A DNA stretch of 64,000 nucleotides from Bacillota bacterium (GCA_963666425.2 OY762825.2:1440001-1504000), one strand, 5' to 3'. Counted from the stretch's first letter, positions 1-13,236 are shown. Notes: generated by a model from the letters alone, not told the origin. Translations and numbers: made by a program.

Positions 1-3000
1 GCGAACTATTTTTCAAAGCATCAACCAACTGGTCAATCAATCTGTCAATTGTCTGACGATAGAGCTTTCCAACCGCACTATCACCATCGGAACACTTGTA
101 AACGCCGTAAGCATGTTTCTTCAATTCTGCCGCTGTAATCTTATCTGCTAGAAAAGCCAACTTGAGGTTCGAATACTTGCTGATATCGCTCATACCTGCC
201 TCATATTTCAGCAAGTACAGGTAGTAGTTGAGAATCAAACTTGAGATAACGCCTGGCAAAGTGCTCTCAACTGATTTTGTTGCCCATCGGTTAATAGAAA
301 CCGAGTCTACAAGGATATCTTTATACTCGTGAAACTTAATAAAGTTTTTTAGATAGCTTTGGTCTTTTTCACGTGATGGACGCATAATGTCGATAACCAA
401 ACCAGTGTACTTTCTGCCGACACGCGAGTAAGCTTGAATATATTCAGCTGTATTTCCGGGTATTCCATAGAAAAGCATCAGGTTGAACCTATCAGCATCC
501 ACGCCATGAGAAATCATACTGGTAGCAGCAATCATATTGAAATCAATACCATCTATCATGCTCTCGGCGTGTTCGATGGTTGAAAGCGTAGCCCTTACCT
601 CCTGGAATGTATCATCACCAGTCATCTTCTTAGCGATGAGCGGTTGAACACCTTCATCAATTAGTTCTGTATTGATAGGGTCTTCCAACGCTTGAAGTAC
701 TCGGTTGCTTTCAAGTTTGACATTGTTGTATTCAAGAATAATCCAATATTCTTCCAATAACCGCTTAACCTCTGCTGTCTGCTCCTCTTTTGAGCCTATG
801 ATTTCAATTCCCGTAAAAGAGAGAACCAATTGAGGGTTAGAATAAAGATTCCAGACTACCCGTTTCAGATATTGTAACGAGTAAGCAACGCTATTCACGA
901 TTGCTTTGCCGAATGGTGCATATCCAATAATGATTCTGCCAATGTCCTTCATGTCAATGAACGAATAGAAGTTGTGATCAAGGTAGGGAGAGGCAGCAGG
1001 AAAGCGAATTGAACCTTTATAATACAAATGCTTAGCTTGTTCAGCGTAAGCAGAAATTGTAGCAGTTGCCCCGATTACCTTTATTCCTCTGTTACAGCCC
1101 GACAAAACCTTGATAAAATACTCAATTAGGGTTTCGTAATGGGAGTCATATGCTCCCAATGACTCTCTGATAAGATGCAACTCGTCCTGAATCATCAGCG
1201 TTGGTGCGGGGTCCTTCATCGACACTTTTTTGTAATCAGCAGGGTCACATTGACAACCGTATACCAGACATTTTGTCTTTGAAGTAAACCCATGCTTTGG
1301 ACATTCGAAATCTGCTCCGAACAGGAAGTTGTGAAAGTTCGAATTAAATCCGAGCGCCGTCATCTTATCCACGGTGGAAATAATTACGGAGGGCAAGTAT
1401 CTGTATATATCGTTATCCACCATATAGAGCGGAATAACACCCCGTGAAGCACACTCTGAATTACTGCAAATGTGCCTTAAACAATTGGCCTCGACATCAT
1501 AAACCACATGAACGGTTTCCTGCCCACAGAACGGACAAACATCTATCAAACGATATTTCGCGTCCATCTCGTCTGGAGAAAGCTCAAGCAATGTACTTTG
1601 AAGGTCTTTATCGATATTATTCGGCGTATTGCCGTCACCAACATAATATCCAAGGCTGAACGGACTACCCCCCAGTTCTTTTGCTTGGCGTATTACCTCG
1701 GCAGTAGCAAGTATGTTAGCGACACGCTGAACCTGTTGTACAGATAGCAAGCGGAGCGGATACTTCAACATCGCAGTAACGCCATAATTCTTACCACGTA
1801 AGCGGTCAAAGAACAAATTAAAAACGAGAATACCCAAAAACGCCTCTGTTTTACCACCGCCAGTTGGGAAATATAGGATATCAACATCATCAGTTTTGGC
1901 TTTGCTTTTGATATCATCATCGAGCATTAGGTCTTGCTCGTGTGCCACGACATCAAGAATCAACGAAACGATAAAGACAATCTGAAATAAACGCCAACTG
2001 TCATAACCTTTACTCTTAGCGGAATCCCTGAAGGATTGATTCATATAACAAAAAGCGTCACTGAGCATATTGTGTTTACTGAGCAGTTCAATGCCTGTGG
2101 CAAACCGCGTCATTTCCAAATTAAAAGCCGCAATCTCATTGCCGAACTGTCGCACACCATTCGGGGTAAGAAAACTGCGCCTTTGTTCAAAATCAGCCAC
2201 CCAACGCCTAATTTCATTTTGCATCTGTACGTGAATGCCTTTTAGAGTTTTAATCGGTTCAGTAATCAGGTCGTCAAATTTGATTGCCATTTTATCGTTC
2301 GTCTTTAAGCGATACTGAACATAGTACGGCACATGGGTTGTCTGTATCTCGACATTGTGCATGTCATATGACACATTGCAGTTATTGCCAAGGGCATAAA
2401 CGAATCTATCGTATTTATAATCGTCGGCGAAATAGTCCAGTTCAATTGGGACAAATTCTGTGTCAATGCATCTAATCTTTATGCCAGAATTGAACAGAGT
2501 GGCTATTCTGTATTTGTCTGTCTTTGCTGAAGACTGCCCAAAACCCGCACTTTCGTCGCTCCAAGGTGTCTCGTTGCTTAGTGCGACGGTCACATTAAGG
2601 TGATCACCGCTTCCTTTCAAATCCACACTCAGAGAGTAATCAAAACGAAGGAACATGTCAAATTCCTCGCGAGTCTGTTGCTTCTTGATATAAGCCTGCC
2701 AATTTTCCTCGGTAATCAAGTCATCAATCTTAAGTTTATCCCTAAACTGACACTGCATAATGTTTGGGCGGGCTTTTGCCTCTGCGCAAAGAGCCTCGAC
2801 TTGCCGCTTAATCTCTTTATAAAACGGAGAATCTCCTGGTACACTTCCGCACTCAAACGTGGGATTGTAGATGTCTGCAATTTTCACTTCAACGAAAAAT
2901 TTTCCTCTGTCGATGGCAATCTTCTCATAAATTGGTAGAAGCTGAACCTTGTGGGCTTGCATCTCCGAAGTTAATTTGCCTGTGCTGAACGCTTCAGTAA

Positions 3001-3352
3001 GTGCAAAAAAGTCGGCAAACTGGGGTTCGGTGAATGTTGCTATAAAATTCTTCAGAAAAAATTCCCGCTGCTGATCAAGAACCGGCAAAACCCTAAAGAA
3101 AAAATTACCCTGCGGATAGATCTGCAATACAGCAGTGCCAATATCCTTTTGGGGGATTCGGAAGTCTACACTTATTTGTTTAATCAGCACGCTCGACGAA
3201 AAACCATCCTCTGCACTTTGCGGAGATAGCTTACCAACATAGATGCGGTCTTCGGGACTGTTGAACAACCACTGTTCCTTGTCTGTGCCAGAAATCGCAT
3301 CTACAAACCTATCCATGATGTTCTCTGCCAAAATTTCTCTATTGTTATGCAT
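1..3352 (-). CDS. DrmA-like superfamily 2 helicase with Cys clusters (>1117 aa, runs off the left edge; absent from the ORF track)
   Basis: Translated by hand from ATG at 3352 (MHNNREILAENIMDRF). Motifs: WRLFQIVF, Walker A ILYFPTGGGKTEA (~1841-1879, frame verified against the ATG), KYPLRLLSVQQVQR, CPFCG..C..C and CPKHG clusters, motif II IQDELHLIRESLG, ATAT, ATSMISHGVD, motif VI AEYIQAYSRVGR. Start overlaps the stop of the upstream gene. Confidence 0.88.
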   Translation of the reverse strand, partial: MHNNREILAENIMDRFVDAISGTDKEQWLFNSPEDRIYVGKLSPQSAEDGFSSSVLIKQISVDFRIPQKDIGTAVLQIYPQGNFFFRVLPVLDQQREFFLKNFIATFTEPQFADFFALTEAFSTGKLTSEMQAHKVQLLPIYEKIAIDRGKFFVEVKIADIYNPTFECGSVPGDSPFYKEIKRQVEALCAEAKARPNIMQCQFRDKLKIDDLITEENWQAYIKKQQTREEFDMFLRFDYSLSVDLKGSGDHLNVTVALSNETPWSDESAGFGQSSAKTDKYRIATLFNSGIKIRCIDTEFVPIELDYFADDYKYDRFVYALGNNCNVSYDMHNVEIQTTHVPYYVQYRLKTNDKMAIKFDDLITEPIKTLKGIHVQMQNEIRRWVADFEQRRSFLTPNGVRQFGNEIAAFNLEMTRFATGIELLSKHNMLSDAFCYMNQSFRDSAKSKGYDSWRLFQIVFIVSLILDVVAHEQDLMLDDDIKSKAKTDDVDILYFPTGGGKTEAFLGILVFNLFFDRLRGKNYGVTAMLKYPLRLLSVQQVQRVANILATAEVIRQAKELGGSPFSLGYYVGDGNTPNNIDKDLQSTLLELSPDEMDAKYRLIDVCPFCGQETVHVVYDVEANCLRHICSNSECASRGVIPLYMVDNDIYRYLPSVIISTVDKMTALGFNSNFHNFLFGADFECPKHGFTSKTKCLVYGCQCDPADYKKVSMKDPAPTLMIQDELHLIRESLGAYDSHYETLIEYFIKVLSGCNRGIKVIGATATISAYAEQAKHLYYKGSIRFPAASPYLDHNFYSFIDMKDIGRIIIGYAPFGKAIVNSVAYSLQYLKRVVWNLYSNPQLVLSFTGIEIIGSKEEQTAEVKRLLEEYWIILEYNNVKLESNRVLQALEDPINTELIDEGVQPLIAKKMTGDDTFQEVRATLSTIEHAESMIDGIDFNMIAATSMISHGVDADRFNLMLFYGIPGNTAEYIQAYSRVGRKYTGLVIDIMRPSREKDQSYLKNFIKFHEYKDILVDSVSINRWATKSVESTLPGVISSLILNYYLYLLKYEAGMSDISKYSNLKLAFLADKITAAELKKHAYGVYKCSDGDSAVGKLYRQTIDRLIDQLVDALKNSS

Positions 3353-4424
3353 GACTAGACCACCCCTTTTCGCTGAGCCGCTTGTGGACGAATTCAGATT
3401 TCAATCCAAGGTTCGAGATAAGCTGTTCGTAAATCCAGCAGTAGACCTCTTTACTTATAATGTCACCATACATTTGAAGAATGCTCAGGGCTCTCAACAG
3501 TTCAGAATAGCTACTGATGGTACAGACTATTTCATTGGCGTTATCATGAATCAAGTCAGCGAAATGTTGGTCAAACATAATAAACATTTCATCAATTCTG
3601 AGCCAGTTTCGAAAGTGGTCTGAGCCAGCTACTTCAGATAGCCAAATTAGCTGAACAGCATTTTTGCAACTTTCAATGGAGAGGTAATTCGATTCGATTT
3701 CTGACAGAATGATTTTCCATCGTTTGAACTTTTCTCGTTCTTCATCATCATGCGCCTTTGCTATGACAAAATCTAAATACCCACAATAATCATTTTCCAG
3801 CTCAAAGTTTTTTTCACCCATCTGAATAGAATTTTCTTCAGGAGTTGAATTTATATGGCTATCAGCAGGTGTAGTGAGCTTTCTGGATATTTGATTTGCG
3901 CTATCATCTTTTGTGAATACGGCATCTTCTCCATCATCCAAATCCAACGGCTCGCCCGTAAAAAGCGTAGGGGTACTTACAATTCCCGACCCATATATTG
4001 TTTCTCCACAGATAATTGCTTTTTTGCTTTCAGCAGTGCTATCAATATCAAGAGTCTGAGCAATAAGAATGCTTCCTTCAGCAATAATGGTTTTTGCCTT
4101 GAGCGCTTGTGCTGTTATTCTACTGTTGGTTTCAATGCTTATCGCTGTAATTTCCTCCGACCATATTTCATCATAAACAATAATAGTGTCAGCTTTACAC
4201 TTACCCATACAGAGAAATCTACCCTTGACATCAATTTCGTTCGCTTCCAAGTCGCCAACGACTATTAAATCAAAAAGAGCCGTTATCTTTCCTTTACACT
4301 TGATGTTGGATGCAACAATGTAACTGGCTTTGAATGTCACATCGTCACAATCTATGCAATATGGTAGAATAAATCTCCCGTCTGACGCAACTATACCTAT
4401 GGTCTTGTCATTGTATGTTGTCAT
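3345..4424 (-). CDS. Hypothetical protein: N-terminal bactofilin/beta-helix-like repeats plus helical C-terminal domain
   Basis: 359-aa ORF. First ~160 aa are short I/V-x-x-x-G beta repeats (NIKCKGKI, VVGDLEANEIDVKG, IIAEGSI). Overlaps both neighbours. Fold is inferred. Confidence 0.65.
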   Translation of the reverse strand: MTTYNDKTIGIVASDGRFILPYCIDCDDVTFKASYIVASNIKCKGKITALFDLIVVGDLEANEIDVKGRFLCMGKCKADTIIVYDEIWSEEITAISIETNSRITAQALKAKTIIAEGSILIAQTLDIDSTAESKKAIICGETIYGSGIVSTPTLFTGEPLDLDDGEDAVFTKDDSANQISRKLTTPADSHINSTPEENSIQMGEKNFELENDYCGYLDFVIAKAHDDEEREKFKRWKIILSEIESNYLSIESCKNAVQLIWLSEVAGSDHFRNWLRIDEMFIMFDQHFADLIHDNANEIVCTISSYSELLRALSILQMYGDIISKEVYCWIYEQLISNLGLKSEFVHKRLSEKGWSSHA

Positions 4425-6405
4425 TGGTTTTTACCCCCTGCATTGATTGTCTAATCAAATCCATATATATTGATTCACCCTTCGGAGCAGAGAGTATAAT
4501 GGTTAATTCATCTTTTGCTCTCGTACAGCCAGTATAAATAAGGTTAATGTTCATTTTGAATGCTTCAAGCTTATCAGGCAATTGTTCCTGAGTGGCCGAT
4601 TTAAACTCTGTCAGTGTTCTTGTTTTTTCGTGTGTTCCCAAAGGCCTTAATCCAGCCAACACAACTGCCTTGAAGTCGAGCCCAAGAGCACCTTCGATTG
4701 AAACAACCGTAACGCCTCGCCGAGACCCGTAGGTTACGCCTTCAGATTGACCTTGATATAAAAACGCCGGTGTTTCCCACCCATGATTGTTGAAGTATTG
4801 AATAATATACGGTCTAAGTTTGTAATAATGTGTTTGCCAACCCCTTGTCGTGTATTTAGCATTTTCATTAAAAAGAATAATGGCTATATCAACTTCGCTT
4901 AGGCCTTTATCATTGATCAGGCACTCGATAGCATCCCCAATGGCGTTTGCTTCCCCAATGTTGCTTAACTCGCTCAATTCAACCAATATAGGTGCATTGC
5001 CGGGTCTAAAAGCAGTTCCGCGCAAGAATAATTCAGGGTCAGAGGTTAGGTCGATACCTAAATTTGAGCCCAATTCCTTCGCCACCGAAACATATCTATC
5101 TATGGCATCATTAATTGGCTTAGAGTTGCGATAATTCGTCTCAATTGGAAGAGTTTTACCTCTGTATTCAGGGTATGTGTCACCCCCACCTTGCCAAGGT
5201 GCTTTGCTACGTTTAATGTTGTTTTTTACATCTTGCGATTTGTCACCGGCGATGACAAAAAAATGATCATCTGCTCTTTTGCTTTTAAGCAGGTTAAAGC
5301 AGAAGCGATACCATTCTGGTTTGAAAATCTGAATTTCATCAATGAAGATTCCGCAGAATCTCTCTTTGATTCTGCCTTGCGCTAGCGCGTTATTAGCCAC
5401 TTCAAACAATCTATCGTAAGAGTCGTTTTGATCGTGATGGTTAGCCGAGGGAAGCGGTATACCATTGCTCTCCAATAACGATTTACATAAGGAGAAAAAA
5501 GTTGAGCAACGCACATTTTTATTCATGAATCCTGCTTGGGCTATTGCCCAAGTATAGTAGTTGTTAAGATTTCTGTTGTAGCAAGTGATGAGAAAGTTTT
5601 CGCTTGGATTAAGGCTTGCCAGTTTGAAACATTTGGAAATGAGCAACACGCTTTTCCCACTGCCTGCACAAGCAAGAATAAGTTGGTTGCCCTTAGCGAT
5701 CTTGTTTATGATTTCAATTTGTTTGCTATCCAAGCGGTAAGACTGTACGGCTCTGTCCGTTGAACCTAAAGCTCCATCTGTGCCGGGCATGGTGTTGTTC
5801 TCGTCCAGGATATATTTTCGCGGTATCGTGATTTCAGGGCAAAGCCTCTGAAACACGTTGTTAATTTGGTCTTCCTGAAGTTCATCAGCCTCGCCTAAAT
5901 AGTTCTTGACCGCATCTGCACCTTCTTTGCGAATCTGTGCTATGGTCTCTTTGAAAAGTACGTGATTGGAGCAAAACTGACGTTCACTTTCATCAAGGCC
6001 AGATGTCACTTGACTTTCGTCAGCTTTCGGAAATACAAAGCAAATATTAAGCTCAAACCGTAGTTTACCCGACGGATCAGTGAGGTAACGACTTTCTTCA
6101 AGTCTTTTTGCGATATCACTTCTAAGCATTCCGTACACGGCAGGGTTGCCCAGCGCCTTGATGGCCATCTGTGCTGCAGCATCTAGTACTTCAATAAAGC
6201 GAAACAAGAGTATCCCTTTGTCGACGAGTAAAAGATTGAATAGTTCAGGTTTTCCACCACCTGCATCCTTTTTGCGCGGGTTTATGTGCAGTACATAATA
6301 CGCCAACTTCTCACTGGAAAAAGCCCGCTCAACTGTCCGCAGGAATGATTTTTCGTCAACTGGAAGTTCCAGCTGCTCGCTTTTTTCGGGATAGACTTGC
6401 ATCAT
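4408..6405 (-). CDS. UvrD/Rep-like superfamily 1 helicase with N-terminal NERD-like region
   Basis: Motifs ACAGSGKS, TCYNRNL, FIDEIQ, AGDKSQ, TNYRNS, GLDFKAV, YTGCTRAKDEL. Confidence 0.85.
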   Translation of the reverse strand: MMQVYPEKSEQLELPVDEKSFLRTVERAFSSEKLAYYVLHINPRKKDAGGGKPELFNLLLVDKGILLFRFIEVLDAAAQMAIKALGNPAVYGMLRSDIAKRLEESRYLTDPSGKLRFELNICFVFPKADESQVTSGLDESERQFCSNHVLFKETIAQIRKEGADAVKNYLGEADELQEDQINNVFQRLCPEITIPRKYILDENNTMPGTDGALGSTDRAVQSYRLDSKQIEIINKIAKGNQLILACAGSGKSVLLISKCFKLASLNPSENFLITCYNRNLNNYYTWAIAQAGFMNKNVRCSTFFSLCKSLLESNGIPLPSANHHDQNDSYDRLFEVANNALAQGRIKERFCGIFIDEIQIFKPEWYRFCFNLLKSKRADDHFFVIAGDKSQDVKNNIKRSKAPWQGGGDTYPEYRGKTLPIETNYRNSKPINDAIDRYVSVAKELGSNLGIDLTSDPELFLRGTAFRPGNAPILVELSELSNIGEANAIGDAIECLINDKGLSEVDIAIILFNENAKYTTRGWQTHYYKLRPYIIQYFNNHGWETPAFLYQGQSEGVTYGSRRGVTVVSIEGALGLDFKAVVLAGLRPLGTHEKTRTLTEFKSATQEQLPDKLEAFKMNINLIYTGCTRAKDELTIILSAPKGESIYMDLIRQSMQGVKTNDNIQ

Positions 6406-7937
6406 TATTTTTTTCCTCCCGACTTCAGTTCCTCTATGAATTCGCAGTACAGACTATCGACAGTCGCACGCTCAAAGTTGCGTGACAAAACTTCCATCAT
6501 CGCTTGTACAACCTTTTTCTCTGATTTTGAAAAGTTAGAAGGGATGTCCTTCTTCACTCTGAAGTTCGTTGATTCATCAACTTCATACGCAAGTGTGGTG
6601 AGCCGTTCCATTAGACCGTTTTTTTGCTCTACAACTTCAACAGGAGCATTTTTCGGAATAGCATATAGGTCGCGTCTTGTCGCGGCAAGTCCAGCTATAA
6701 CCTGTTCTTTTTCGGTGGCTGAATGAAATCCTGTAGTGAGAACTTCTTCAAACTTAGATACATCGTATTCAACCTTTTTGATCGTCTTTTGCATCGGGTT
6801 GTTTCTAACCTTGGATGCTGCACGGATTTTATCACTTATCTCCGTACCGATTGTTTCCCTTAAACCAATGGTAAACTCTGAGAAAGTTGTGCTTTTCTCA
6901 AAGTCGTCGCGGCGGGCATTCGGAATTAGGTTAGGAGAGACAACATAAACTTCACCAACCGCCCAACCGTTGAAACGGCTCTCTTTGTAGTAAGGAGCGA
7001 GGGTTCGTCCTCCACCGATAAGAATATTACCTTGTCGTAACCTTAACCCAGAAATACGCTCGTCAAACAGTGTTCCTGAAAAATCCGTGTTAGCGTACCA
7101 ACCGTAGGCAATCATATTCTGATTGCAATCATTTATTCTAAAGAAGGAGAGACTGAGGATTTCATCTTTCGTTACACCTGTACGTGAATTTGACTCAAAG
7201 GACACCTTATATGGCTTGTATACTTGAGAAAGAGATTCAAATGACTCACCTATAAAGACGGGGTATTCGGCAATAGTGATTCCGTTTTTCAACAACTCTT
7301 TTTTTATTTCTCGTTCCCAATAGAATCTGTCTCTAAAAGGTATAGGTGCAACCTGTGAAATATAGTCTTTGACCGTTTCTAAATCCAAGAGAGATGAAAT
7401 ATCGTCGACATCTTCCATTTTTACGATGAAGTAATGCGCCGATGACTGTTCCTGCATAATCTTGATTTCAGTGACGACTTCGATGACGCTCTGGAGATTA
7501 TATTCCGTGCTTTGACCCGGGACTAAAAGGGCTTTCAATTTCTCGCAATCAAAAGTAATAAGCGTCTTTTCGTTTTCACCTAATGCAGTAGTACAGAAAC
7601 TGAGCTTTTTACAATACGAAAGACCTCCAAGACGACCTATACCGCGAAAACCGCGATTTGTCGTATGTAGTTTGGTGGAATTACCGATATCAAGCAGCAT
7701 CTTCCTAACCAAGTCTTTCTTAATGCCTGTTCCATTGTCACGAATACTGATTTCCTGCTTTGTTCCATCAACGATTATCTCAATACGGAAGTGCTCTGCC
7801 TGTGTTAAACCTTCTGCAAGCGCAGTATCAAGTGAATCTACCGCGTTCTGAATATACTCTCGATAGCAGGACTCTGGTTCACTGTACATACCAGTAGTCA
7901 GCGATTCGAGAGTGAATTTACCGATTTCAATTTCCAT
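6405..7937 (-). CDS. GHKL (HSP90/MutL/MORC-like) ATPase
   Basis: Bergerat motifs REYIQNAVD, IRDNGTGI, GFRGIGRLGG; transducer-like IPNARRDDFE; helical tail; RBS GGAGG; TAATG overlap with the next gene. Confidence 0.85.
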   Translation of the reverse strand: MEIEIGKFTLESLTTGMYSEPESCYREYIQNAVDSLDTALAEGLTQAEHFRIEIIVDGTKQEISIRDNGTGIKKDLVRKMLLDIGNSTKLHTTNRGFRGIGRLGGLSYCKKLSFCTTALGENEKTLITFDCEKLKALLVPGQSTEYNLQSVIEVVTEIKIMQEQSSAHYFIVKMEDVDDISSLLDLETVKDYISQVAPIPFRDRFYWEREIKKELLKNGITIAEYPVFIGESFESLSQVYKPYKVSFESNSRTGVTKDEILSLSFFRINDCNQNMIAYGWYANTDFSGTLFDERISGLRLRQGNILIGGGRTLAPYYKESRFNGWAVGEVYVVSPNLIPNARRDDFEKSTTFSEFTIGLRETIGTEISDKIRAASKVRNNPMQKTIKKVEYDVSKFEEVLTTGFHSATEKEQVIAGLAATRRDLYAIPKNAPVEVVEQKNGLMERLTTLAYEVDESTNFRVKKDIPSNFSKSEKKVVQAMMEVLSRNFERATVDSLYCEFIEELKSGGKK

Positions 7938-8961
7938 TTTGAATACCTCCCATTAGCATATTAGTATTGGCGTTTTTCTCACGTTTAGCTCCTTCTGATA
8001 CAATTCTCATGATATCTCCGACGTCACACATCAATGTCGTGTAAATTCTTATCAAAATTTCTGTATTGACATTTCTATATTGGTTTAGGAAAACTCGACA
8101 AAATAAGTGCGCGAAGATGATGAACCTGCTGTGTTGAAGCCCAAGATAAGAACGCCGGACAAAGAGAAGAACAATTAGAGCCGTTTGTTTTGGAAGATCA
8201 TTTTGGATACATGTTCCGGTGTGGCAGTGCCCTGGGTCGAGATGTGTGATACCCACTTCTCGGACTTCACAACGTGAACGGTAAGCCGCTAAACACACTA
8301 TTCACTCAATAATTAAATGCGAACTGTATATTCACCATTCTTTTGTGTGAAACGAGATCGCTGCGCGGGTCTCACCAATTAATCCGCCATTGGTTTATTT
8401 TGATCTGTTTAATTCCCGTTCTTTTGTTTAGTGTTTGAAAAATCTAATGAATTTTCTTTGAGCACTTCCAACTATTTCAGTTTTTAATTATACTTATCTA
8501 AAATGTTATTATATCATTCTAAATTCCTCTTTTACTAACTAAATTCCTTTCATTTTTGAATTATTTAATTATCAAGCTGATTAACTGGAATAGTGAAAAT
8601 CTATTCATCCCACACTTTAAACAACGAATAATCTGAAGGATACATATCAACGGTCCACATTTTAACAACCCCCTAAGGGGTACGAATTCTACCTAACCGT
8701 TACTATTTCAGCGATGATAGTTCCCTCCCCTTTCCTTGCCCAAATAATGAAAAACGAGCCTTCAAAGCAGACTTTTTCAACTTGAAAGCTCATTTTAATC
8801 ATATAATTGGCACGTTTTACAGAAAAAATTAAATAATCTATTGTATCAATAGCTGAATCCTGATTGAGAAGAGAGGTGTGATTCGAACCTATACCGGAAC
8901 GTTATTCAACAAGGTTTACTTCTTTCATTCAACTCATATATTTGCATAGCAACTAACCAAC

Positions 8962-9006
8962 AAAAAAAAATCCAATCAGAACATAAGCTGTTCTGATTGG
9001 ATTTTT
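8962..9006 (-). terminator. Intrinsic terminator, copy of the transketolase terminator
   Basis: AAAAATCCAATCAGAAC..GTTCTGATTGGATTTTT, nearly identical to 12195-12235. Confidence 0.8.
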
Positions 9007-9035
9007 AGTAATATCGACTTTTTTTATCGACTATC

Positions 9036-9650
9036 TTACTTTCTCGCCAAGGCTTCCTTCGCCGCCTGCACAATGTGGGCAGTGGTCAAGCCGTATTTTT
9101 CCAGCAACGCGTCCGGTTTGCCGGACTCGCCAAAGGTATCGTTAATGCCAACTCTTAGCAGCGGAGCCGGGTATTGTTCGGCCAGCAATTCCGCCACGGC
9201 GCTGCCCAGGCCGTTGATAATGCTGTGTTCTTCTGCAGTCACAATGGCGCCGGTTTTCTGCACGGAGGCAAGGATGGTGGCACTGTCAAACGGTTTGATA
9301 AAGAGCACATTAATCACTTTGGCCGCAATGCCTTCTGCCGCCAGCAGATCGGCCGTTTCCACCGCATCGGCAGGCGCAATCACCACCATATTGGGAATGC
9401 CGAGCATCAGACCGAGATCTTCCACCGATTGATGAGTGGCGCCGTCTTCTCCCACGGTTAGTCTGGCGTGGGTGGCCACAATTTTTACGTTCATTTTAGG
9501 GTAGGCAATGGAGTTACGGATTTGGTCATAGGCACGTCCGGTCATAAAGATGGCAAAGGTGCTGATAAAGGGGGTCTTGCCGCTGGCGGCAAAACCGGCG
9601 GCGATGCCGGTCATATCGGCTTCGGCAATGCCGCAACTGAAAAAGCGCTC
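9036..9650 (-). pseudogene. Diverged, 5'-truncated duplicate of the transketolase C-terminal subunit with an in-frame 186-bp (62-aa) deletion
   Basis: Matches 12283-13083 with scattered substitutions; AVETA is joined directly to DLLAAEG. Confidence 0.9.
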
Positions 9651-9680
9651 TATGTTAAGCGCACCACCGGTATGGAACAG

Positions 9681-9818
9681 GATAGTACGGTTGTTTTGAA
9701 CGTGCTCATCGGTAATTGGTGCTTCGCCATGCAGATCTTCTTCCTCCACATTATAATTCATCGTTTCTATTGCATGATTCTTTGCGGCAATCGTCAATGC
9801 AGGCAGAAAATCCGCAAG
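9681..9818 (-). pseudogene. dinD: DNA-damage-inducible protein D, C-terminal fragment
   Basis: LADFLPALTIAAKNHAIETMNYNVEEEDLHGEAPITDEHVQNNR resembles the DinD C-terminal region. Confidence 0.7.
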
Positions 9819-9908: not shown

Positions 9909-10999
9909 TTATACCTTTGCTTCTCTAAAACTCAAAAGTTCAATACTCTTGTACCAATAAAAATAAGCTTCCGGATCAAACTTCATAATGGACTTGAATT
10001 TTTTGAAATCAGGATGTTCGATGACAAATTCTCTTAGGTCTATTTTAGGATTGAATTTCTCAACCTCAGAAATATCATACTTTAAAAGAAGAGCCAGGTA
10101 TGCTGCCTTAGAAGCACTATTAACAGCATTTTCCAAAATGTAATTCTTAGAAAAGATGTAGTCCTTTATTCTATTCACTCCGGTTTGTAATTGAGCAAAG
10201 GTCTCCTTTTCAATCCGTCCTCTTTCACTTAAAATCTTTGAGGTTTCAAATATATCATTAAGAACATCCGCATAAGATAGATCTTCGTCTTTTTTTCTGT
10301 ATGTTAATTCTTGTTTTGCCATATGCCTAAAAGTATTCCTTACGTCATCTATATCTTCCATTTCGTCAAATAAGTTACCTACATCAAACAGTTGCTTTAT
10401 GATTTCCAATTCTTTGTTTTTCCCATAGGGTATGCCTGTAGTATTCGGTGCATAGGCTGTAAGTTTGTCACCGAGGATACAGTCGACACTCGGCATTGTT
10501 ACTTTCACTGCTGGTTCTGAGTACTCAATTAAGCTACAGTCAATAATTTTTTCTATTACTTTTACATAGTGGCTTTTATCAAAGAGCACATCTAGTAGAA
10601 TATAGCTTTCTTCACCGTCAAGAACCGATGTATAGACCATTTTATAATGAGCTTTAGGTACTTCATTATTTCCTTGTCTAACATTCTCCTCAAAGCGAAT
10701 AAAAATCTCACTTCCCTCTACGATTTTAGAAAGCACCTCTTCCATGTCAATATCCTGCTTCTTTTCCTCTATAATGATGTCAATATCAATTGAAAACCTA
10801 TGCATTTTATTGAGCAACAGTAATAACGATGTCCCACCTTTGAATATGAATTTTAAGTCCGTTCTTGCCAGCTCTTCTAATAAGTGAAGTGCTTTGGTTA
10901 CTTTTTCAATAAGCGTAGGATCTGCTTTTTTTTCCCTCTCACATATTGACTGCTTTTCTTTAATATCCATTCTTTTGTGTAAGTTGTCTCATTTATCAT
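9909..10999 (-). CDS. AbiEii/AbiGii-family nucleotidyltransferase toxin (type IV TA); 5' end out of frame at an A8 run
   Basis: FIFKGGTSLLL, RFSIDIDI, GDKLTA, KQLFD motifs. RBS-preceded ATG at 10999 is in a different frame and joins the main ORF by a -1 shift at 10926-10933. Confidence 0.85.
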
Positions 11000-11008
11000 T
11001 TGTGCACC

Positions 11009-11758
11009 TCACATTAATAATTCGTCTTCCTCAATATCAGTCTCCTTTTTAAGAAAAAAAATCAATCTATCCTTTACATGTCTCTTGTTGGCATACTGCC
11101 CTAATGTTGACTGGTTGATATTGAAAATCTTAAAAAACTCCTGAAATATATTCTGAAGCTCTGCTCCTTGATAGGTGGCGAACAACTCATCATCCGTAAA
11201 AATATCTACCATGATCTTCTCAATTGTAGGAACTTTTAAATCTTCTCTTTCTGTCAAAGGTGATGTCATCGTAAGTTTTTTTATGATAATATTGTTTTGA
11301 CCGGATATTACATAATTCTCTACTTCAAACTTTCCTGGGTTTAAGTAGACATCTCTATACGATTCTTTCAGAAAGGCAAATACCGCAGGTGCAGCATCCT
11401 TCTCTACTTCCAAGATTATGTTGCTGCTGAATGCCTGATGTACCATGTAGTTATTCAACCACGAAGTCTCCCAGATAGCCACATCCGTATAAGGAAACTG
11501 TTTTTTAACTTTCACAAACAAACTGGTGAGTTTTCTATCTATTGCCGGTTCAAAATCTTTTTTGCTATTTGTTGCATAAACACCTTTCTTCAGCGTGCTG
11601 ATTACTCCATCATTTTTTAGAGTATAAACCCTCGACCTAAAAGTTGTTTTCTTTAAGTCCGGCTCACAATCTGCATAAAAACGATACAAATCATTACTAC
11701 TAAATGGTTTATCACCGAAATATATCTTTATTTCTTTTGTTCTTAACTTATCATTCAT
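11009..11758 (-). CDS. AbiEi-like antitoxin (winged-helix N-terminus, DUF6577-like)
   Basis: N-terminal wHTH (TFRSRVYTLKNDGVISTLKKGVY), C-terminal VPTIEKIMVD; directly upstream of the AbiEii gene; start set at MNDK after GGAG. Confidence 0.75.
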   Translation of the reverse strand: MNDKLRTKEIKIYFGDKPFSSNDLYRFYADCEPDLKKTTFRSRVYTLKNDGVISTLKKGVYATNSKKDFEPAIDRKLTSLFVKVKKQFPYTDVAIWETSWLNNYMVHQAFSSNIILEVEKDAAPAVFAFLKESYRDVYLNPGKFEVENYVISGQNNIIIKKLTMTSPLTEREDLKVPTIEKIMVDIFTDDELFATYQGAELQNIFQEFFKIFNINQSTLGQYANKRHVKDRLIFFLKKETDIEEDELLM

Positions 11759-11783
11759 TACAATCATCTCCATTTCAGAACCC

Positions 11784-11885
11784 AACATAAGGAGCATTTT
11801 AAATTTTAGCTCCTTATGTTTAACTATCGAAATCACTATTTTCTACCCAACATACGGAGCCTTTTTTATTTTTGCTCCTTATGTT
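11784..11885. promoter_or_regulatory. Two palindromic operators AACATAAGGAGC-N13-GCTCCTTATGTT (probable AbiEi autorepression sites)
   Basis: 11784-11820 (perfect) and 11849-11885 (one mismatch), between the promoter and the abiEi start. Confidence 0.75.
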
Positions 11886-11896
11886 TGGTTGTTACA

Positions 11897-12170: not shown

Positions 12171-12194
12171 TGTGAAATAAGACCTAGCTATAAC

Positions 12195-12235
12195 AAAAAT
12201 CCAATCAGAGCCTAGGCAGTTCTGATTGGATTTTT
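12195..12235 (-). terminator. Intrinsic terminator after transketolase
   Basis: AAAAATCCAATCAGA..TCTGATTGGATTTTT inverted repeat. Confidence 0.8.
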
Positions 12236-12282
12236 ATATGTTTAATATTTATAGGGTTATCGGCTTATTCTTTTCAAACTGA

Positions 12283-13236
12283 CTACTTTCTCGCTAACGC
12301 ATCCTTCGCCGCCTGCACAATATGAGCGGCTGTCAAACCGTATTTTTCCAACAGTGCGTCTGGTTTGCCGGATTCGCCAAAGGTGTCGTTGATGCCAACT
12401 CTTTGCAGCGGAGCCGGGTATTGTTCGGCCAGCAGTTCTGCTACGGCGCTGCCCAGGCCATTGATAATGCTGTGTTCTTCCGCAGTCACAATGGCGCCGG
12501 TTTTCTGCACGGAGGCAAGAATGGTGGCGCTGTCAAACGGTTTGATAAAGGGCACATTAATCACTTCGGCCGTAATGCCTTCTGCCGCCAGCAGATCGGC
12601 CGCTTCCAGTGCGAGTGCGGTCATCATGCCGGTGGCAGCCAGGGTAATGTCTTTGCCTTGGCGCAGGACATTGGCTTTGCCCCATTCCAGTTTATAATCG
12701 TCGCCGAAGAGGACCGGTATGGCGGAGCGGCCCATGCGGATGTAGACCGGGCCCTGATAAGCGGCAGCCAGGCGAACCGCCGCGGCTGTTTCCACTGCAT
12801 CGGCGGGTGCAATCACCACCATATTGGGAATGCCGCGCATCAAGCCGAGATCTTCCACCGATTGATGGGTGGCGCCGTCTTCTCCCACGGTCAACCCGGC
12901 ATGGGTGGCCACAATTTTTACGTTCATTTTAGGGTAAGCCACCGAGTTGCGGATTTGGTCATAAGCGCGGCCGGTCATAAAGATGGCAAAGGTGCTGATA
13001 AAGGGCGTCTTGCCGCTGGCAGCCAAGCCGGCGGCGATGCCGGTCATATCGGCTTCGGCAATGCCGCAGCTGAAAAAGCGTTCCGGATACACCTTGGCAA
13101 AACCGATGGTCAAGGTGGAGGTGGCCACATCGGCATCCAGAACAACAATATTAGGGTTTTCGGCGCCAAGCGCAATTAAGGTTTCCTGATAGGCCTCACG
13201 GGCTGCTTTAAGTGTTGTCATCTTAATCTCCTTCAC
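12283..13236 (-). CDS. tktB: Transketolase, C-terminal subunit
   Basis: GIAEADM, VGEDGATHQ, EEHSIINGLGS motifs. Confidence 0.93.
   Translation of the reverse strand: MKEIKMTTLKAAREAYQETLIALGAENPNIVVLDADVATSTLTIGFAKVYPERFFSCGIAEADMTGIAAGLAASGKTPFISTFAIFMTGRAYDQIRNSVAYPKMNVKIVATHAGLTVGEDGATHQSVEDLGLMRGIPNMVVIAPADAVETAAAVRLAAAYQGPVYIRMGRSAIPVLFGDDYKLEWGKANVLRQGKDITLAATGMMTALALEAADLLAAEGITAEVINVPFIKPFDSATILASVQKTGAIVTAEEHSIINGLGSAVAELLAEQYPAPLQRVGINDTFGESGKPDALLEKYGLTAAHIVQAAKDALARK

What the first reader, a model, noticed from the sequence alone, without database searches (positions are those of the whole stretch)
1..7937. Candidate undescribed anti-phage system: GHKL ATPase + SF1 helicase + beta-helix protein + DrmA-like SF2 helicase
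Seen: four minus-strand genes overlap end to end (1, 17 and 8 bp) in an AT-rich island beside an AbiE module. The last gene (>1117 aa, missing from the ORF track) carries DrmA-type motifs (FPTGGGKT, YPLRLLS.QQ, QDELHL, MISHGVD, EYIQA.SRVGR, Cys clusters). Known: DrmA-like helicases form the core of DISARM, with related SF2 helicases in Azaca, Druantia and Dpd; GHKL ATPases (e.g. MzaA) and UvrD-like helicases (Gabija GajB) occur in other defence systems. Canonical DISARM places drmD/drmMI or drmE upstream of drmA, not these three genes. Inference: a new multi-ATPase defence operon or new DISARM/Azaca-like class; further genes (DUF1998, PLD, methylase) may lie beyond the left edge.
Basis: partly seen in the sequence, partly recalled or inferred. 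Interest (0 to 1): 0.85.

Follow-up and report, generated by a model that had tools for sequence, protein, structure and literature searches.

The report
DISARM-like operon with radical-SAM enzyme
The four genes are the first half of a conserved eight-gene mobile operon, probably an anti-phage system, that keeps the two core DISARM helicase proteins but replaces the usual nuclease and DNA methylase with a helicase-nuclease, a radical-SAM enzyme and two Hsp90/MutL-type ATPases.

Summary
In detail: four overlapping minus-strand genes lie in a low-GC island beside AbiEii. They encode a GHKL ATPase, an SF1/UvrD-like helicase, an acidic beta-helix protein and a DrmA-type helicase.

They are only half of the unit. 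The operon runs 7.1 kb past the left edge of the window: DrmB (DUF1998), a NERD-nuclease::UvrD helicase, a 670-aa radical-SAM enzyme with a B12-binding-like N-domain, and a second, paralogous GHKL ATPase.

This eight-gene order recurs in all 16 related loci found in other species, as far as their contigs reach. These are mostly anaerobic Bacillota, plus one Bacteroidota. The flanks vary and are rich in defence and mobile-element genes. No PLD nuclease (DrmC), DNA methyltransferase, DrmE or SNF2 gene belongs to the cassette, so it is DISARM-related but not DISARM class 1 or 2.

The radical-SAM/GHKL pair is itself a portable module. It also occurs with DndB-like, SNF2 or PIN proteins on alphaproteobacterial plasmids and IMG/VR contigs, and it was swapped as a pair in one locus.

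Best reading: an undescribed DISARM variant in which NERD-UvrD replaces DrmC. The radical-SAM enzyme may replace the methylase as the self-marker, but that step is inferred, not shown. PADLOC and the papers I searched do not describe this system.

The parts
7927..8298 (-). Remnant of the upstream HTH regulator gene (5'-truncated in this genome)
   Evidence: Only the last 48 codons (about window 7930-8073) match the small Cro/C1-type HTH_26 proteins that sit directly upstream of GHKL1 in L003, L004, L005 and L018. Identity to L004 is 73% over residues 56-103. The HTH-bearing N-terminal half is not encoded in any frame of window 7800-9100. Pfam finds no family for this ORF.
6405..7937 (-). GHKL1: GHKL (Bergerat-fold) ATPase, 510 aa
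   Evidence: PF13589 HATPase_c_3, 6.1e-12. A profile of this family matches HtpG/Hsp90 N-domains over residues 15-90 only (E 1.4e-06). N31, D67-N68-G69-x-G71 and G96-F-R-G-I-G101 are invariant in 20 of 20 sequences. It is 44% identical over 380 aa to GHKL2 at the other end of the operon. No PADLOC model matches.
4408..6405 (-). UvrD1: SF1/UvrD-like helicase, 665 aa, with an N-terminal domain of about 220 aa of no known family
   Evidence: PF00580, 5.2e-07. PADLOC C3a187 'NERD+UvrD', 2.4e-24, covers residues 174-640 only. Walker A (A247-S252) and D356-E357-x-Q359 are invariant in 12 of 12 sequences. The helicase core aligns with the second helicase of the operon (hhalign probability 94%). The N-terminal domain shows no detectable NERD similarity (hhalign E 0.36).
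3345..4424 (-). Acidic beta-helix protein, 359 aa; the fastest-diverging gene of the cassette
   Evidence: No Pfam or PADLOC family. 255 homologues at E<=1e-3, some carrying precomputed PF03961 (FapA). AlphaFold2 pLDDT 85.4: beta-helix 1-160, disordered 174-196, helical domain 199-352. The matches are generic right-handed beta-helices. pI 4.6, with 34 K+R against 59 D+E. It has the lowest identity of all cassette genes in 15 of 16 loci, 35-75% against 59-93% for the others.
1..3352 (-). DrmA-type SF2 helicase (1151 aa; the last 34 codons lie left of the window, and the ORF ends at G000:C1 1439897)
   Evidence: PADLOC DrmA PDLC02576, 6.1e-155. NCBIfam DISARM_DrmAS scores 358.7 bits, below its 950-bit cut-off. 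The nearest annotated plasmid relatives are about 30% identical over 96-99% of the length and sit in DrmE-DrmA-DUF1998-PLD operons.

The operon continues left of the window, all on the minus strand (G000:C1 coordinates):
- DrmB, 1437995-1439884, 629 aa.
- NERD::UvrD helicase, 1436361-1437992, 543 aa.
- Radical-SAM enzyme, 1434345-1436357, 670 aa.
- GHKL2, 1432871-1434343, 490 aa.

The gaps between these genes are 12, 2, 3 and 1 nt.

Best explanation
The finding is the 5' half of an eight-gene, horizontally mobile operon, preceded in relatives by a small HTH regulator. It is a previously undescribed variant of the DISARM family of anti-phage systems.

Gene order: GHKL1 - UvrD1 - beta-helix protein - DrmA - DrmB - NERD::UvrD helicase-nuclease - radical-SAM enzyme - GHKL2.

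Proposed mechanism (shown: composition, conservation and intact catalytic motifs; inferred: every functional step):
1. DrmA-DrmB is the DNA-sensing and translocating core, as in Serratia DISARM.
2. The NERD::UvrD protein, at the operon position where DISARM class 2 has the PLD nuclease DrmC, is the executing helicase-nuclease.
3. The radical-SAM enzyme sits where class 2 has the methylase DrmMII. It has a B12-binding-like Rossmann domain followed by a CX3CX2C barrel. Together with its tightly linked partner GHKL2, it is proposed to put a covalent self-mark on host DNA that holds the system off.
4. GHKL1 with UvrD1 is proposed to act like MutL with UvrD, an ATP-driven clamp that loads or activates the helicase. 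The two paralogous GHKL proteins may form a heterodimer.
5. The acidic, fast-evolving beta-helix protein is proposed to be a regulator, sensor or DNA mimic.

My odds:
- Conserved DISARM-related system: about 0.85.
- It defends against phage or plasmid DNA: about 0.7.
- NERD::UvrD is the effector nuclease: about 0.5.
- The radical-SAM enzyme is the self-marking DNA modifier: about 0.35.

The confidence given for this explanation (0.55) is for the statement as a whole, mechanism included.
For: Operon structure. There are eight co-directional genes. Three junctions overlap (1, 17 and 8 bp) and four have gaps of 12, 2, 3 and 1 nt.

Conservation (tblastn of the operon's proteins against the 16 loci):
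- All 16 of 16 loci carry UvrD1, the beta-helix gene and DrmA in that order.
- 14 of 16 reach DrmB and the NERD helicase. The other two contigs end inside DrmA.
- 13 of 16 reach the radical-SAM gene.
- 12 carry GHKL2, and one more (L005) keeps only its first 23 codons.
- Record titles place the hosts in Oscillospiraceae, Desulfosporosinus, Saccharofermentans, Christensenellaceae, Faecalibacterium, Jutongia and one Bacteroidetes MAG.

Patchy distribution. 2 of 6 genomes of the host's family carry the cassette marker, and the same-genus genome lacks it.

Flanks in relatives (Pfam on 71 of the 139 flank ORFs, those nearest the cassette):
- ABC-3C systems in L004, L008 and L011.
- AbiEii in L017.
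- A PLD-ResIII-DUF3427 protein in L013.
- A Shedu SduA_C protein in L019.
- Recombinases, a relaxase and TniB in others.

Core identity. DrmA scores 6.1e-155 and DrmB 3.4e-52 against PADLOC models.

Position analogy. The closest annotated DrmA relatives lie in DrmE-DrmA-DUF1998-PLD (+methyltransferase) operons.

Intact catalytic motifs:
- NERD D55, E69 and K71, with the Walker motifs, are invariant in 14 of 14 sequences.
- Radical-SAM C156, C160 and C163 are invariant in 46 of 46 sequences.
- The GHKL N-box and G-boxes are invariant in 20 of 20 sequences.

Radical-SAM fold. The model has pLDDT 93.3. VIA-align gives AprD4 Z 21.8 (rmsd 3.6, 350 residues), MgmA Z 20.6, CysS 18.1, TsrM 18.1 and OxsB 17.3, all spanning residues 1 to about 410.

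No methyltransferase or PLD domain appears in the eight proteins or, conserved, in the flanks.

The radical-SAM/GHKL pair behaves as a unit:
- The two genes are 1 nt apart.
- In L009 the pair is 46% and 45% identical to ours, while DrmA, DrmB and the NERD helicase are 78-84%.
- The pair recurs next to DndB-like, PIN_8 or SNF2 genes on plasmids pNL1 and pR132505.
- It is adjacent in 13 of the 80 kept IMG/VR loci; one of these is the cassette itself, and all 13 are among the loci with at least 32% identity.

DrmAB mechanism and definition come from passages of PMC9142583.
Against: - No experiment exists for any member of this cassette. Defence is inferred from homology and context.
- The radical-SAM substrate is unknown. 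The best structural match, AprD4, is a diol dehydratase, not a methylase. MiaB/RimO-type methylthiotransferases score within 3 Z units, so the fold does not fix the chemistry.
- Sequence profiles find no solved relative.
- In Serratia DISARM, DrmC is dispensable and self-discrimination rests partly on DNA structure (PMC9142583). A nuclease and a self-mark therefore need not map one-to-one.
- Several natural copies are decayed: the NERD helicase is split in L003, DrmB is split in L017, GHKL2 is deleted in L005, and GHKL1 is reduced to 65 codons in L012. In this genome the HTH regulator is truncated.
- NCBIfam DrmA and DrmB scores lie far below the curated cut-offs.
Confidence: 0.55

Rival explanations
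1. This is the same eight-gene defence system, but the radical-SAM enzyme is an effector or small-molecule maker rather than the self-marker. It might damage or alter invading DNA by radical chemistry, or make a modified nucleotide as viperins do. Self-discrimination would then rest on DNA ends and structure alone, as proposed for DrmAB.
For: The best structural match is a non-methylase, AprD4 (Z 21.8). Viperins are among the barrel-only matches at Z about 10. DrmAB discriminates partly by DNA structure (PMC9142583 passages). A radical-SAM enzyme is essential in the unrelated Ophion defence system (preprint 10.1101/2025.09.30.679545, passages).
Against: The gene occupies the DrmMII position. 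In sister systems it sits beside DndB-like proteins; DndB belongs to the Dnd DNA phosphorothioation gene set. Short relatives in Phocaeicola and Bacteroides phages lie among DNA methyltransferase genes. The enzyme is far larger than viperins, with a B12-binding-like domain and a 240-aa C-terminal helical domain.
Confidence: 0.2
2. The cassette is two independent systems that travel together: a DrmA/DrmB/helicase system, and a separate radical-SAM plus GHKL system that also exists on its own elsewhere.
For: The radical-SAM/GHKL pair occurs without DrmA or DrmB on alphaproteobacterial plasmids and in IMG/VR contigs. The pair was exchanged independently in L009.
Against: The two GHKL paralogues bracket the DrmAB genes instead of lying side by side. 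All junctions are overlaps or gaps of at most 12 nt. The order is the same in every locus that reaches the genes. The cassette marker (the beta-helix gene) was never found without the neighbours, 16 of 16.
Confidence: 0.15
3. It is not a defence system but a DNA repair or maintenance module of a mobile element, comparable to the MrfA/YprA repair branch of the same helicase family.
For: YprA-family helicases include a DNA-repair branch (preprint 10.1101/2025.09.15.676423, section 5). GHKL plus UvrD resembles the MutL-UvrD repair pair (PMC2292703 passages).
Against: The helicase matches DrmA models at 6.1e-155, and DrmA and DrmB are split into two genes. That preprint describes the split as typical of the DISARM branch. 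The neighbours are defence genes and mobile-element genes. The distribution is patchy.
Confidence: 0.05

Closest known systems
DISARM class 2 (DrmE-DrmA-DrmB-DrmC-DrmMII; as described in PMC9142583 and annotated on Halomicrobium and Streptomyces plasmids)
   Same: DrmA and DrmB are separate adjacent genes in the same order. DrmA aligns over its full length at about 30% identity. A nuclease gene and then a putative modification gene follow DrmB.
   Different: There is no PLD nuclease, no SAM-dependent DNA methyltransferase and no DrmE. Their places hold a NERD::UvrD helicase-nuclease, a radical-SAM enzyme with GHKL2, and GHKL1 + UvrD1 + the beta-helix protein.
Unnamed radical-SAM + GHKL + DndB-like operons on alphaproteobacterial plasmids (pNL1 NC_009426.1, pR132505 NC_012854.1) and IMG/VR contigs
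   Same: The radical-SAM enzyme is homologous (38-40% identity over residues 2-416 or 2-449), followed directly by a GHKL2 homologue (about 35% identity). A second GHKL paralogue lies nearby.
   Different: The partners are DndB-like (DGQHR), PIN_8, SNF2 and ParB-like proteins instead of DrmA, DrmB and UvrD helicases. The radical-SAM enzyme there lacks the long C-terminal helical domain (537 aa against 670 aa).
Tiamat-like 'Type III-C' neighbourhood (preprint 10.64898/2026.09.30.754977, section 23)
   Same: A GHL-type ATPase is encoded together with a GajB/UvrD-like helicase, DrmA and DrmB.
   Different: There the ATPase is fused to a helicase and a cytosine methyltransferase is present, with no radical-SAM enzyme, second GHKL or beta-helix protein. 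I saw only the text, not the figure or the sequences.
Prokaryotic MORC/paraMORC ATPases of restriction-modification systems (Iyer, Abhiman, Aravind 2008, PMC2292703)
   Same: GHKL ATPases with intact ATP-binding motifs sit in operons with SF2 helicases and nucleases. The proposed MutL/UvrD-like role is the same.
   Different: That paper links them to DNA methylases and does not contain the word 'radical' (0 occurrences). Whether GHKL1 and GHKL2 carry the S5 domain, or belong to any paraMORC family, was not tested.
Radical-SAM enzymes with an N-terminal B12-binding or B12-binding-like domain (TsrM, MgmA, CysS, TokK, OxsB; AprD4)
   Same: Two-domain architecture: an N-terminal Rossmann-like domain followed by a CX3CX2C barrel. 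Z is 17-22 over about 320-400 aligned residues.
   Different: Sequence identity is 11-16%, and sequence profiles find no relative. There is an extra 240-aa helical C-terminal domain. The substrate is unknown, and cobalamin binding could not be tested.
ARMADA type II (ArmA-D; preprint 10.1101/2025.09.15.676423)
   Same: A YprA-family helicase is combined with a GajB-like UvrD helicase in a strict gene order.
   Different: ARMADA has a BrxHII-like helicase and a PglX-like methyltransferase. Its YprA belongs to the Druantia-like clade, whereas ours matches DrmA models and is split into DrmA and DrmB.

Membership tests
DISARM (classes 1 and 2) | DrmA SF2 helicase | tested here: met
   PADLOC DrmA PDLC02576, 6.1e-155, covers residues 54-1081. 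NCBIfam DrmAS scores 358.7 bits, below its 950-bit equivalog cut-off, so this is a divergent DrmA.
DISARM (classes 1 and 2) | DrmB (DUF1998/MZB) encoded next to DrmA | tested here: met
   PADLOC DrmB PDLC02582, 3.4e-52; Pfam MZB, 1e-05. NCBIfam DrmB_fam scores 84.5 bits, below its 240-bit cut-off.
DISARM (classes 1 and 2) | DrmC, a PLD-family nuclease | tested here: not met
   No PLD domain in any of the eight proteins at E<=0.01. None is conserved in the flanks of relatives; the only PLD found is a separate PLD-ResIII-DUF3427 protein in L013.
DISARM (classes 1 and 2) | DNA methyltransferase DrmMI or DrmMII | tested here: not met
   No methyltransferase domain in the eight proteins. No DNA methyltransferase appears among the 71 flank ORFs scanned; only tRNA-U5-type methyltransferases turn up, in L016 and L023.
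DISARM (classes 1 and 2) | DrmD (SNF2) or DrmE accessory protein | tested here: not met
   No SNF2 domain and no DrmE match among the three upstream proteins in the Pfam, PADLOC or NCBIfam scans.
MORC/paraMORC GHKL ATPases | GHKL domain with conserved ATP-binding motifs | tested here: met
   PF13589, 6.1e-12 and 6.2e-08. The N-box Asn, DxGxG and GxxGxG positions are invariant in 20 of 20 sequences.
MORC/paraMORC GHKL ATPases | C-terminal S5-fold domain and the family-specific motifs | not tested
Sequence profiles match only residues 15-90 of solved GHKL proteins.
Cobalamin-dependent (class B) radical-SAM methyltransferases | CX3CX2C cluster motif in a radical-SAM barrel | tested here: met
   C156, C160 and C163 are invariant in 46 of 46 sequences. 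PF04055, 1.6e-08.
Cobalamin-dependent (class B) radical-SAM methyltransferases | N-terminal Rossmann-type B12-binding domain | tested here: inconclusive
   Pfam B12-binding is weak (E 0.0038, below cut-off). The model aligns from residue 1 with MgmA, TsrM, CysS and OxsB (Z 17-21). It aligns equally well with AprD4 (Z 21.8) and with MiaB/RimO (Z 18), whose N-domains serve other roles. No Cys is conserved in the N-domain.
Cobalamin-dependent (class B) radical-SAM methyltransferases | Cobalamin binding and methyl transfer | not testable with these tools
   Needs biochemistry.
Gabija (GajA + GajB) | GajB UvrD-type helicase paired with GajA ATPase-Toprim nuclease | tested here: not met
   UvrD1 gives only partial GajB matches (best 9e-10 over residues 222-273). 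There is no GajA in the operon.
NERD::UvrD helicases (PADLOC 'RTasNERD-Hel', C3a187) | N-terminal NERD PD-(D/E)xK domain fused to an SF1 helicase | tested here: met
   This applies to the sixth gene only. It matches RTasNERD-Hel at 2.6e-64 over residues 1-536, and Pfam NERD at 9e-11. D55, E69 and K71 are invariant. UvrD1 does not meet this feature: its N-domain shows no NERD similarity.

The most novel reading that the evidence does not exclude
A radical-SAM enzyme with a B12-binding-like domain, working with a dedicated GHKL ATPase, installs a non-canonical covalent mark on DNA. The mark would be one that ordinary SAM methyltransferases cannot make, such as methylation of an unactivated carbon. 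The DrmAB helicase would read it as 'self'. That would be the first restriction-modification-type immunity based on radical chemistry. The radical-SAM/GHKL pair would be its portable modification module, shared with DndB/SNF2/PIN-type systems and copied in short form by phages as counter-defence.
Probability: 0.3. Interest if true: 0.9.

Novelty: new variant of a known kind. Interest (0 to 1): 0.72.

Why it matters
DISARM is defined by DrmA, DrmB and DrmC plus a methyltransferase, and how it tells self from non-self is still debated. This cassette keeps only DrmA and DrmB and rebuilds everything else, so it is a natural experiment on what the core needs.

If the radical-SAM enzyme is the self-marker, it points to an unknown DNA modification and a new enzymatic route to epigenetic marks. 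If it is an effector, it is a new way to attack invading DNA.

The radical-SAM/GHKL pair recurs with at least three different partner sets, which makes it a candidate building block of bacterial immunity. It also gives prokaryotic GHKL/MORC-like ATPases a testable partner. All members found so far are in anaerobes, where oxygen-sensitive defence enzymes have hardly been explored.

Tried and rejected
- Complex prediction of the radical-SAM enzyme (residues 1-450) with GHKL2 returned 'no answer' (score 0.00, controls not run). It says nothing either way.
- Foldseek of the beta-helix model against the PDB gave no match at E<=1e-3. The VIA-align wide search tested only residues 1-182 in practice, so the C-terminal helical domain remains unexamined.
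- Profile searches of the PDB found nothing meaningful for the radical-SAM enzyme (best E 0.08, to GapR-like UPF0335 proteins over residues 547-618) or for the beta-helix protein (best E 0.033).
- I tested whether the UvrD1 N-domain is an inactivated NERD domain. hhalign gave E 0.36, so I dropped the idea.
- A search for att-like repeats between the two ends of the low-GC island found only chance 11-13-mers. No tRNA gene lies in either flank.
- Order-level sampling was uninformative because only 10 genomes are held for the order.
- ESM Atlas look-ups returned only unnamed HATPase_c_3 and radical-SAM clusters.
- No paper describing this architecture turned up in searches for: DrmA + DrmB + radical SAM; paraMORC, DUF1998, radical SAM, HATPase_c_3, DISARM; DGQHR + radical SAM; DndB, radical SAM, GHKL, defense; cobalamin-dependent radical SAM with DNA modification, restriction and phage defense (listing only); class 3 DISARM and DISARM-like.
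- Supplementary tables could not be opened, including Table S1 of the YprA census. They may list this clade among the 'many uncharacterized DISARM-like classes'.

Full report
OBSERVATION

The window is G000:C1:1440001-1504000. One search confirms four minus-strand ORFs at 6405-7937, 4408-6405, 3345-4424 and 2-3352, overlapping by 1, 17 and 8 bp. The last one runs off the left edge.

GC is 0.38-0.44 across them, against 0.52-0.57 in the host-like DNA right of about 12000. To the right lie AbiEii (9909-10970) and a DUF6577 protein (11009-11836).

Family scans gave:
- GHKL ATPase: PF13589, 6.1e-12.
- UvrD-like helicase: PF00580, 5.2e-07; PADLOC 'NERD+UvrD' C3a187, 2.4e-24, over residues 174-640.
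- The 359-aa protein: no family.
- The last gene: PADLOC DrmA, 6.1e-155 over residues 54-1081, against 2.3e-05 for DpdJ and 1.5e-03 for DruE.

THE UNIT IS LARGER

I fetched the 18 kb left of the window (L002). DrmA ends 105 nt beyond the edge, giving 1151 aa. Four more genes follow on the same strand, with gaps of 12, 2, 3 and 1 nt:
- DrmB, 629 aa: PADLOC 3.4e-52; Pfam MZB/DUF1998 1e-05.
- A NERD::UvrD helicase, 543 aa: Pfam NERD 9e-11; PADLOC RTasNERD-Hel 2.6e-64 over the full length.
- A 670-aa radical-SAM protein: PF04055 1.6e-08; weak B12-binding hit at E 0.0038; no PADLOC or NCBIfam family.
- A second GHKL ATPase: PF13589 6.2e-08.

The listed 519-aa ORF of the second GHKL overlaps the radical-SAM gene. 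Its true start is a GTG 29 codons in, giving 490 aa. Three results support this: similarity to GHKL1 begins there, relatives have stop codons upstream of it, and their ORFs are 490-493 aa.

GHKL1 and GHKL2 are paralogues, 44% identical over 380 aa. The two SF1 helicases share only their helicase cores (hhalign probability 94%). The UvrD1 N-domain shows no NERD similarity.

After a 246-nt gap comes an AAA_14/DUF4143 ATPase (PADLOC candidate PDC-S01, 1.2e-58), then an ABC-F gene in DNA of higher GC.

CONSERVATION

The 359-aa protein has 255 homologues at E<=1e-3 among 1721 candidates. A scan of one genome per species with an alignment of 26 of them found 16 loci, out of 84 pattern matches. tblastn of the operon's proteins against these loci showed one and the same order, as far as each contig reaches:
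- UvrD1, the beta-helix gene and DrmA are present in 16 of 16 loci.
- DrmB and the NERD helicase are present in 14 of 16. L004 and L006 end inside DrmA.
- The radical-SAM gene is present in 13 of 16. L012 ends just after the NERD helicase.
- GHKL2 is present in 12. In L005 only its first 23 codons remain.
- GHKL1 is full-length in 14, cut by the contig end in L006, and reduced to its last 65 codons in L012.

Some copies are decaying: the NERD helicase is split in L003 and DrmB is split in L017.

By record title the hosts are Oscillospiraceae, Eubacteriales, Desulfosporosinus, Saccharofermentans, Christensenellaceae, Faecalibacterium, Jutongia, other Bacillota MAGs and one Bacteroidetes MAG. 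Source names add Parabacteroides and a Desulfovibrio MAG. All are anaerobes.

In the host's own family, 2 of 6 genomes carry the marker and the same-genus genome does not.

FLANKS IN RELATIVES

I scanned 71 of the 139 flank ORFs, choosing those nearest the cassette.
- A small Cro/C1-type HTH gene sits directly upstream of GHKL1 in L003, L004, L005 and L018. L008 has an HTH_17 gene in that place.
- The other neighbours vary: ABC-3C systems (L004, L008, L011), AbiEii (L017), a PLD-ResIII-DUF3427 protein (L013), a Shedu SduA_C protein downstream of GHKL2 (L019), serine recombinases or a resolvase (L003, L010), relaxases (L015, L021), TniB (L020), or housekeeping genes (L007).
- No DNA methyltransferase or PLD gene is a conserved neighbour.
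- The Desulfosporosinus contig is also listed in IMG/VR.

In this window the HTH gene is a remnant. Only its last 48 codons match, and the HTH half is absent in all frames.

THE PROTEINS

Catalytic positions are kept:
- The GHKL N-box Asn, DxGxG and GxxGxG are invariant in 20 of 20 sequences.
- The Walker motifs of UvrD1 are invariant in 12 of 12.
- NERD D55, E69 and K71 and the Walker motifs of the second helicase are invariant in 14 of 14.
- Radical-SAM C156, C160 and C163 are invariant in 46 of 46. No other cysteine is conserved across the wider family, which argues against a methylthiotransferase-type auxiliary cluster.

Beta-helix protein. The model (pLDDT 85.4) has a beta-helix at 1-160, a disordered linker at 174-196 and a helical domain at 199-352. 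Only generic beta-helix matches appear, and the low-rmsd ones are right-handed, such as tapirin 4wa0_A (Z 14.7, rmsd 2.4 over 162 residues). The protein is strongly acidic (pI 4.6). It has the lowest identity of all cassette genes in 15 of 16 loci, 35-75% against 59-93% for the others. In L009 it ties with the swapped pair described below.

Radical-SAM enzyme. The model (pLDDT 93.3, pTM 0.86) has an N-terminal Rossmann-like domain, the barrel, and a 240-aa helical C-terminal domain. Foldseek ranks TsrM first (1.5e-08), then MgmA, MtaB, OxsB, AprD4, MiaB/RimO, TokK and CysS. VIA-align gives:

| Structure | Z |
|---|---|
| AprD4 | 21.8 (rmsd 3.6, 350 residues, model 1-411) |
| MgmA | 20.6 |
| MtaB | 19.0 |
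| RimO | 18.4 |
| MiaB | 18.3 |
| CysS | 18.1 |
| TsrM | 18.1 |
| OxsB | 17.3 |

 The architecture is therefore that of radical-SAM enzymes with a B12-binding-like N-domain, but the chemistry is not fixed by the fold. Sequence profiles find no solved relative.

GHKL proteins. A profile of the family matches only residues 15-90 of HtpG/Hsp90 N-domains (1.4e-06). I did not test whether an S5 domain follows.

THE RADICAL-SAM/GHKL PAIR IS A MODULE OF ITS OWN

The radical-SAM family is wide. A profile search of 1.84 billion representatives gives 1763 hits at E<=1e-3, 920 at <=1e-10 and 310 at <=1e-30.

On plasmids, 12 alphaproteobacterial records carry a 38-40% identical homologue. The annotated regions of pNL1 and pR132505 read:

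PIN_8 protein - GHKL - DndB-like (DGQHR) - radical SAM - GHKL

pNL1 also has a DndB::HEPN protein nearby, and pR132505 an SNF2 helicase and a ParB-N protein. Both 'ATP-binding proteins' there are homologues of GHKL1 and GHKL2, at 29-36% identity.

In IMG/VR, 475 of 574 candidate stretches encode a relative. Among the 80 loci kept, 13 have a GHKL gene directly beside the radical-SAM gene, and all 13 are among the loci with at least 32% identity. One of them is the cassette itself. Their contexts fall into two types:
- [unknown]-[unknown]-SNF2-[unknown]-(DndB)-radical SAM-GHKL.
- [unknown]-[unknown]-GHKL-radical SAM.

Short, more distant relatives (25-31% identity, no GHKL) are common in phages. 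In Phocaeicola phage PV4-TP1 the gene lies among DNA methyltransferase and PAPS-reductase genes.

Within the cassette the pair was exchanged as a unit. In L009 the radical-SAM gene is 46% and GHKL2 45% identical to ours, while DrmA, DrmB and the NERD helicase are 78-84% identical.

I reproduced its core on two plasmids.

COMPARISON WITH KNOWN SYSTEMS

The nearest annotated DrmA relatives are about 30% identical over 96-99% of the length. They sit in canonical class 2 DISARM operons: DrmE-DrmA-DUF1998-PLD in Halomicrobium, and the same with a DNA methyltransferase in Streptomyces.

Position by position:
- The NERD::UvrD gene takes the place of DrmC.
- Radical SAM + GHKL2 takes the place of DrmMII.
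- GHKL1 + UvrD1 + the beta-helix gene takes the place of DrmE.

DISARM as described in PMC9142583 (passages) typically holds a methyltransferase, DrmA, DrmB and the PLD nuclease DrmC. Two of these four are absent here, and NCBIfam DrmA and DrmB scores fall below the curated cut-offs. I therefore file this as DISARM-related, not as a member of class 1 or 2.

What the papers say:
[quoted passage not shown] Its text never mentions GHKL, MORC or Hsp90, and 'radical' occurs only as 'radically'.
- The Tiamat preprint (section 23) describes a neighbourhood with a GHL-helicase fusion, a cytosine methylase, GajB, DrmA and DrmB. That is related in theme but differs in composition.
- Iyer et al. 2008 (PMC2292703, passages) link MORC/paraMORC GHKL ATPases to SF2 helicases, nucleases and methylases in R-M systems and propose a MutL/UvrD-like role. 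Radical SAM is not mentioned.
- The Dnd reappraisal (PMC10853773, passages) does not mention MORC, Hsp90, DISARM, DrmA or DUF1998, and its two uses of 'radical SAM' concern DndC, not a separate radical-SAM enzyme.

PADLOC-DB v2 has no model for GHKL1, GHKL2, the beta-helix protein or the radical-SAM enzyme.

HOW IT MOST LIKELY WORKS

Shown: an eight-gene operon that is tightly packed, conserved in order across phyla, patchily distributed, located in defence and mobile-element contexts, and intact in its catalytic motifs.

Inferred from the Serratia DrmAB work: DrmA-DrmB loads on free single-stranded or 5'-overhang DNA of an invader and translocates.

Inferred from position and motifs: the NERD::UvrD protein unwinds and cuts.

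Inferred from four observations, the radical-SAM enzyme with GHKL2 marks host DNA:
- It occupies the DrmMII position.
- Sister systems place it beside DndB-like proteins.
- Phage homologues lie among DNA-modification genes.
- The pair was swapped as a module.

Inferred by analogy with MutL-UvrD: GHKL1, perhaps as a heterodimer with GHKL2, clamps DNA and activates UvrD1.

The acidic, hypervariable beta-helix protein may be a DNA-mimic regulator or a sensor exposed to phage counter-measures. This is the weakest step.

Rivals:
- The radical-SAM enzyme is an effector or nucleotide modifier (0.2).
- Two co-travelling systems (0.15). Against this, the GHKL paralogues are interleaved around DrmAB and the order is invariant.
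- A repair or maintenance module (0.05).

VERDICT

This is a new variant of a known kind: a DISARM-related system with a novel component set. It contains a sub-module, radical SAM + GHKL, that may be a new type of DNA-modification unit. Nothing has been tested at the bench, and the chemistry of the radical-SAM enzyme is open.

Noticed in passing
window 8963-9797 and 12192-13082: About 830 bp covering the 3' part of the transketolase C-subunit gene and its terminator hairpin is present twice, at 89-91% identity. The two copies bracket the AbiEii/DUF6577 module. The left copy (ORF 9036-9797, 253 aa) is a truncated gene fragment. This looks like the scar of an insertion into, or next to, the transketolase gene's 3' end.
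   Followed up: partly
G000:C1 1431281-1432624 (L002 9281-10624, minus strand), left of the window: An AAA_14 + DUF4143 ATPase (447 aa) lies 246 nt downstream of GHKL2 in the same low-GC island. It matches the PADLOC single-gene defence candidate PDC-S01 at 1.2e-58. It is not conserved next to the cassette in relatives.
   Followed up: partly
L003 16433-18060; L017 14744-16641; L005/L023; L012 2055-2249: Natural copies of the cassette show decay. The NERD helicase is split in L003 and DrmB is split in L017. GHKL2 is reduced to 23 codons in L005, and GHKL1 to its last 65 codons in L012.
   Followed up: partly
window 3345-4424 (beta-helix protein): Cys72, Cys76, Cys139 and Cys301 are invariant, and Cys43 is kept in 96% of the 26 aligned homologues. 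This is unusual for a cytoplasmic beta-helix and may indicate a metal site.
   Followed up: no
L002 12345-14357, radical-SAM residues 547-618: The only sequence-profile matches to solved structures are non-significant ones (E 0.08-0.2) to GapR-like UPF0335 proteins. They fall in the C-terminal helical domain.
   Followed up: no
window 11780-11821 and 11845-11886: Two copies (88% identity) of a 42-nt hairpin-forming element lie at the 5' end of, and just upstream of, the DUF6577 gene.
   Followed up: no
L027 (Phocaeicola phage PV4-TP1) 5989-6906; L026 (Marinitoga camini virus 1) 6001-7083: Short homologues of the radical-SAM core occur in phage genomes without a GHKL partner. In PV4-TP1 the gene lies among DNA methyltransferase and PAPS-reductase genes. 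In the Marinitoga virus it lies next to HerA/NurA-like genes.
   Followed up: partly
L004 1121-4176; L008 2909-6225; L011 2895-5545: ABC-three-component (ABC-3C) conflict systems lie directly upstream of the cassette, or of its HTH gene, in three unrelated loci.
   Followed up: no
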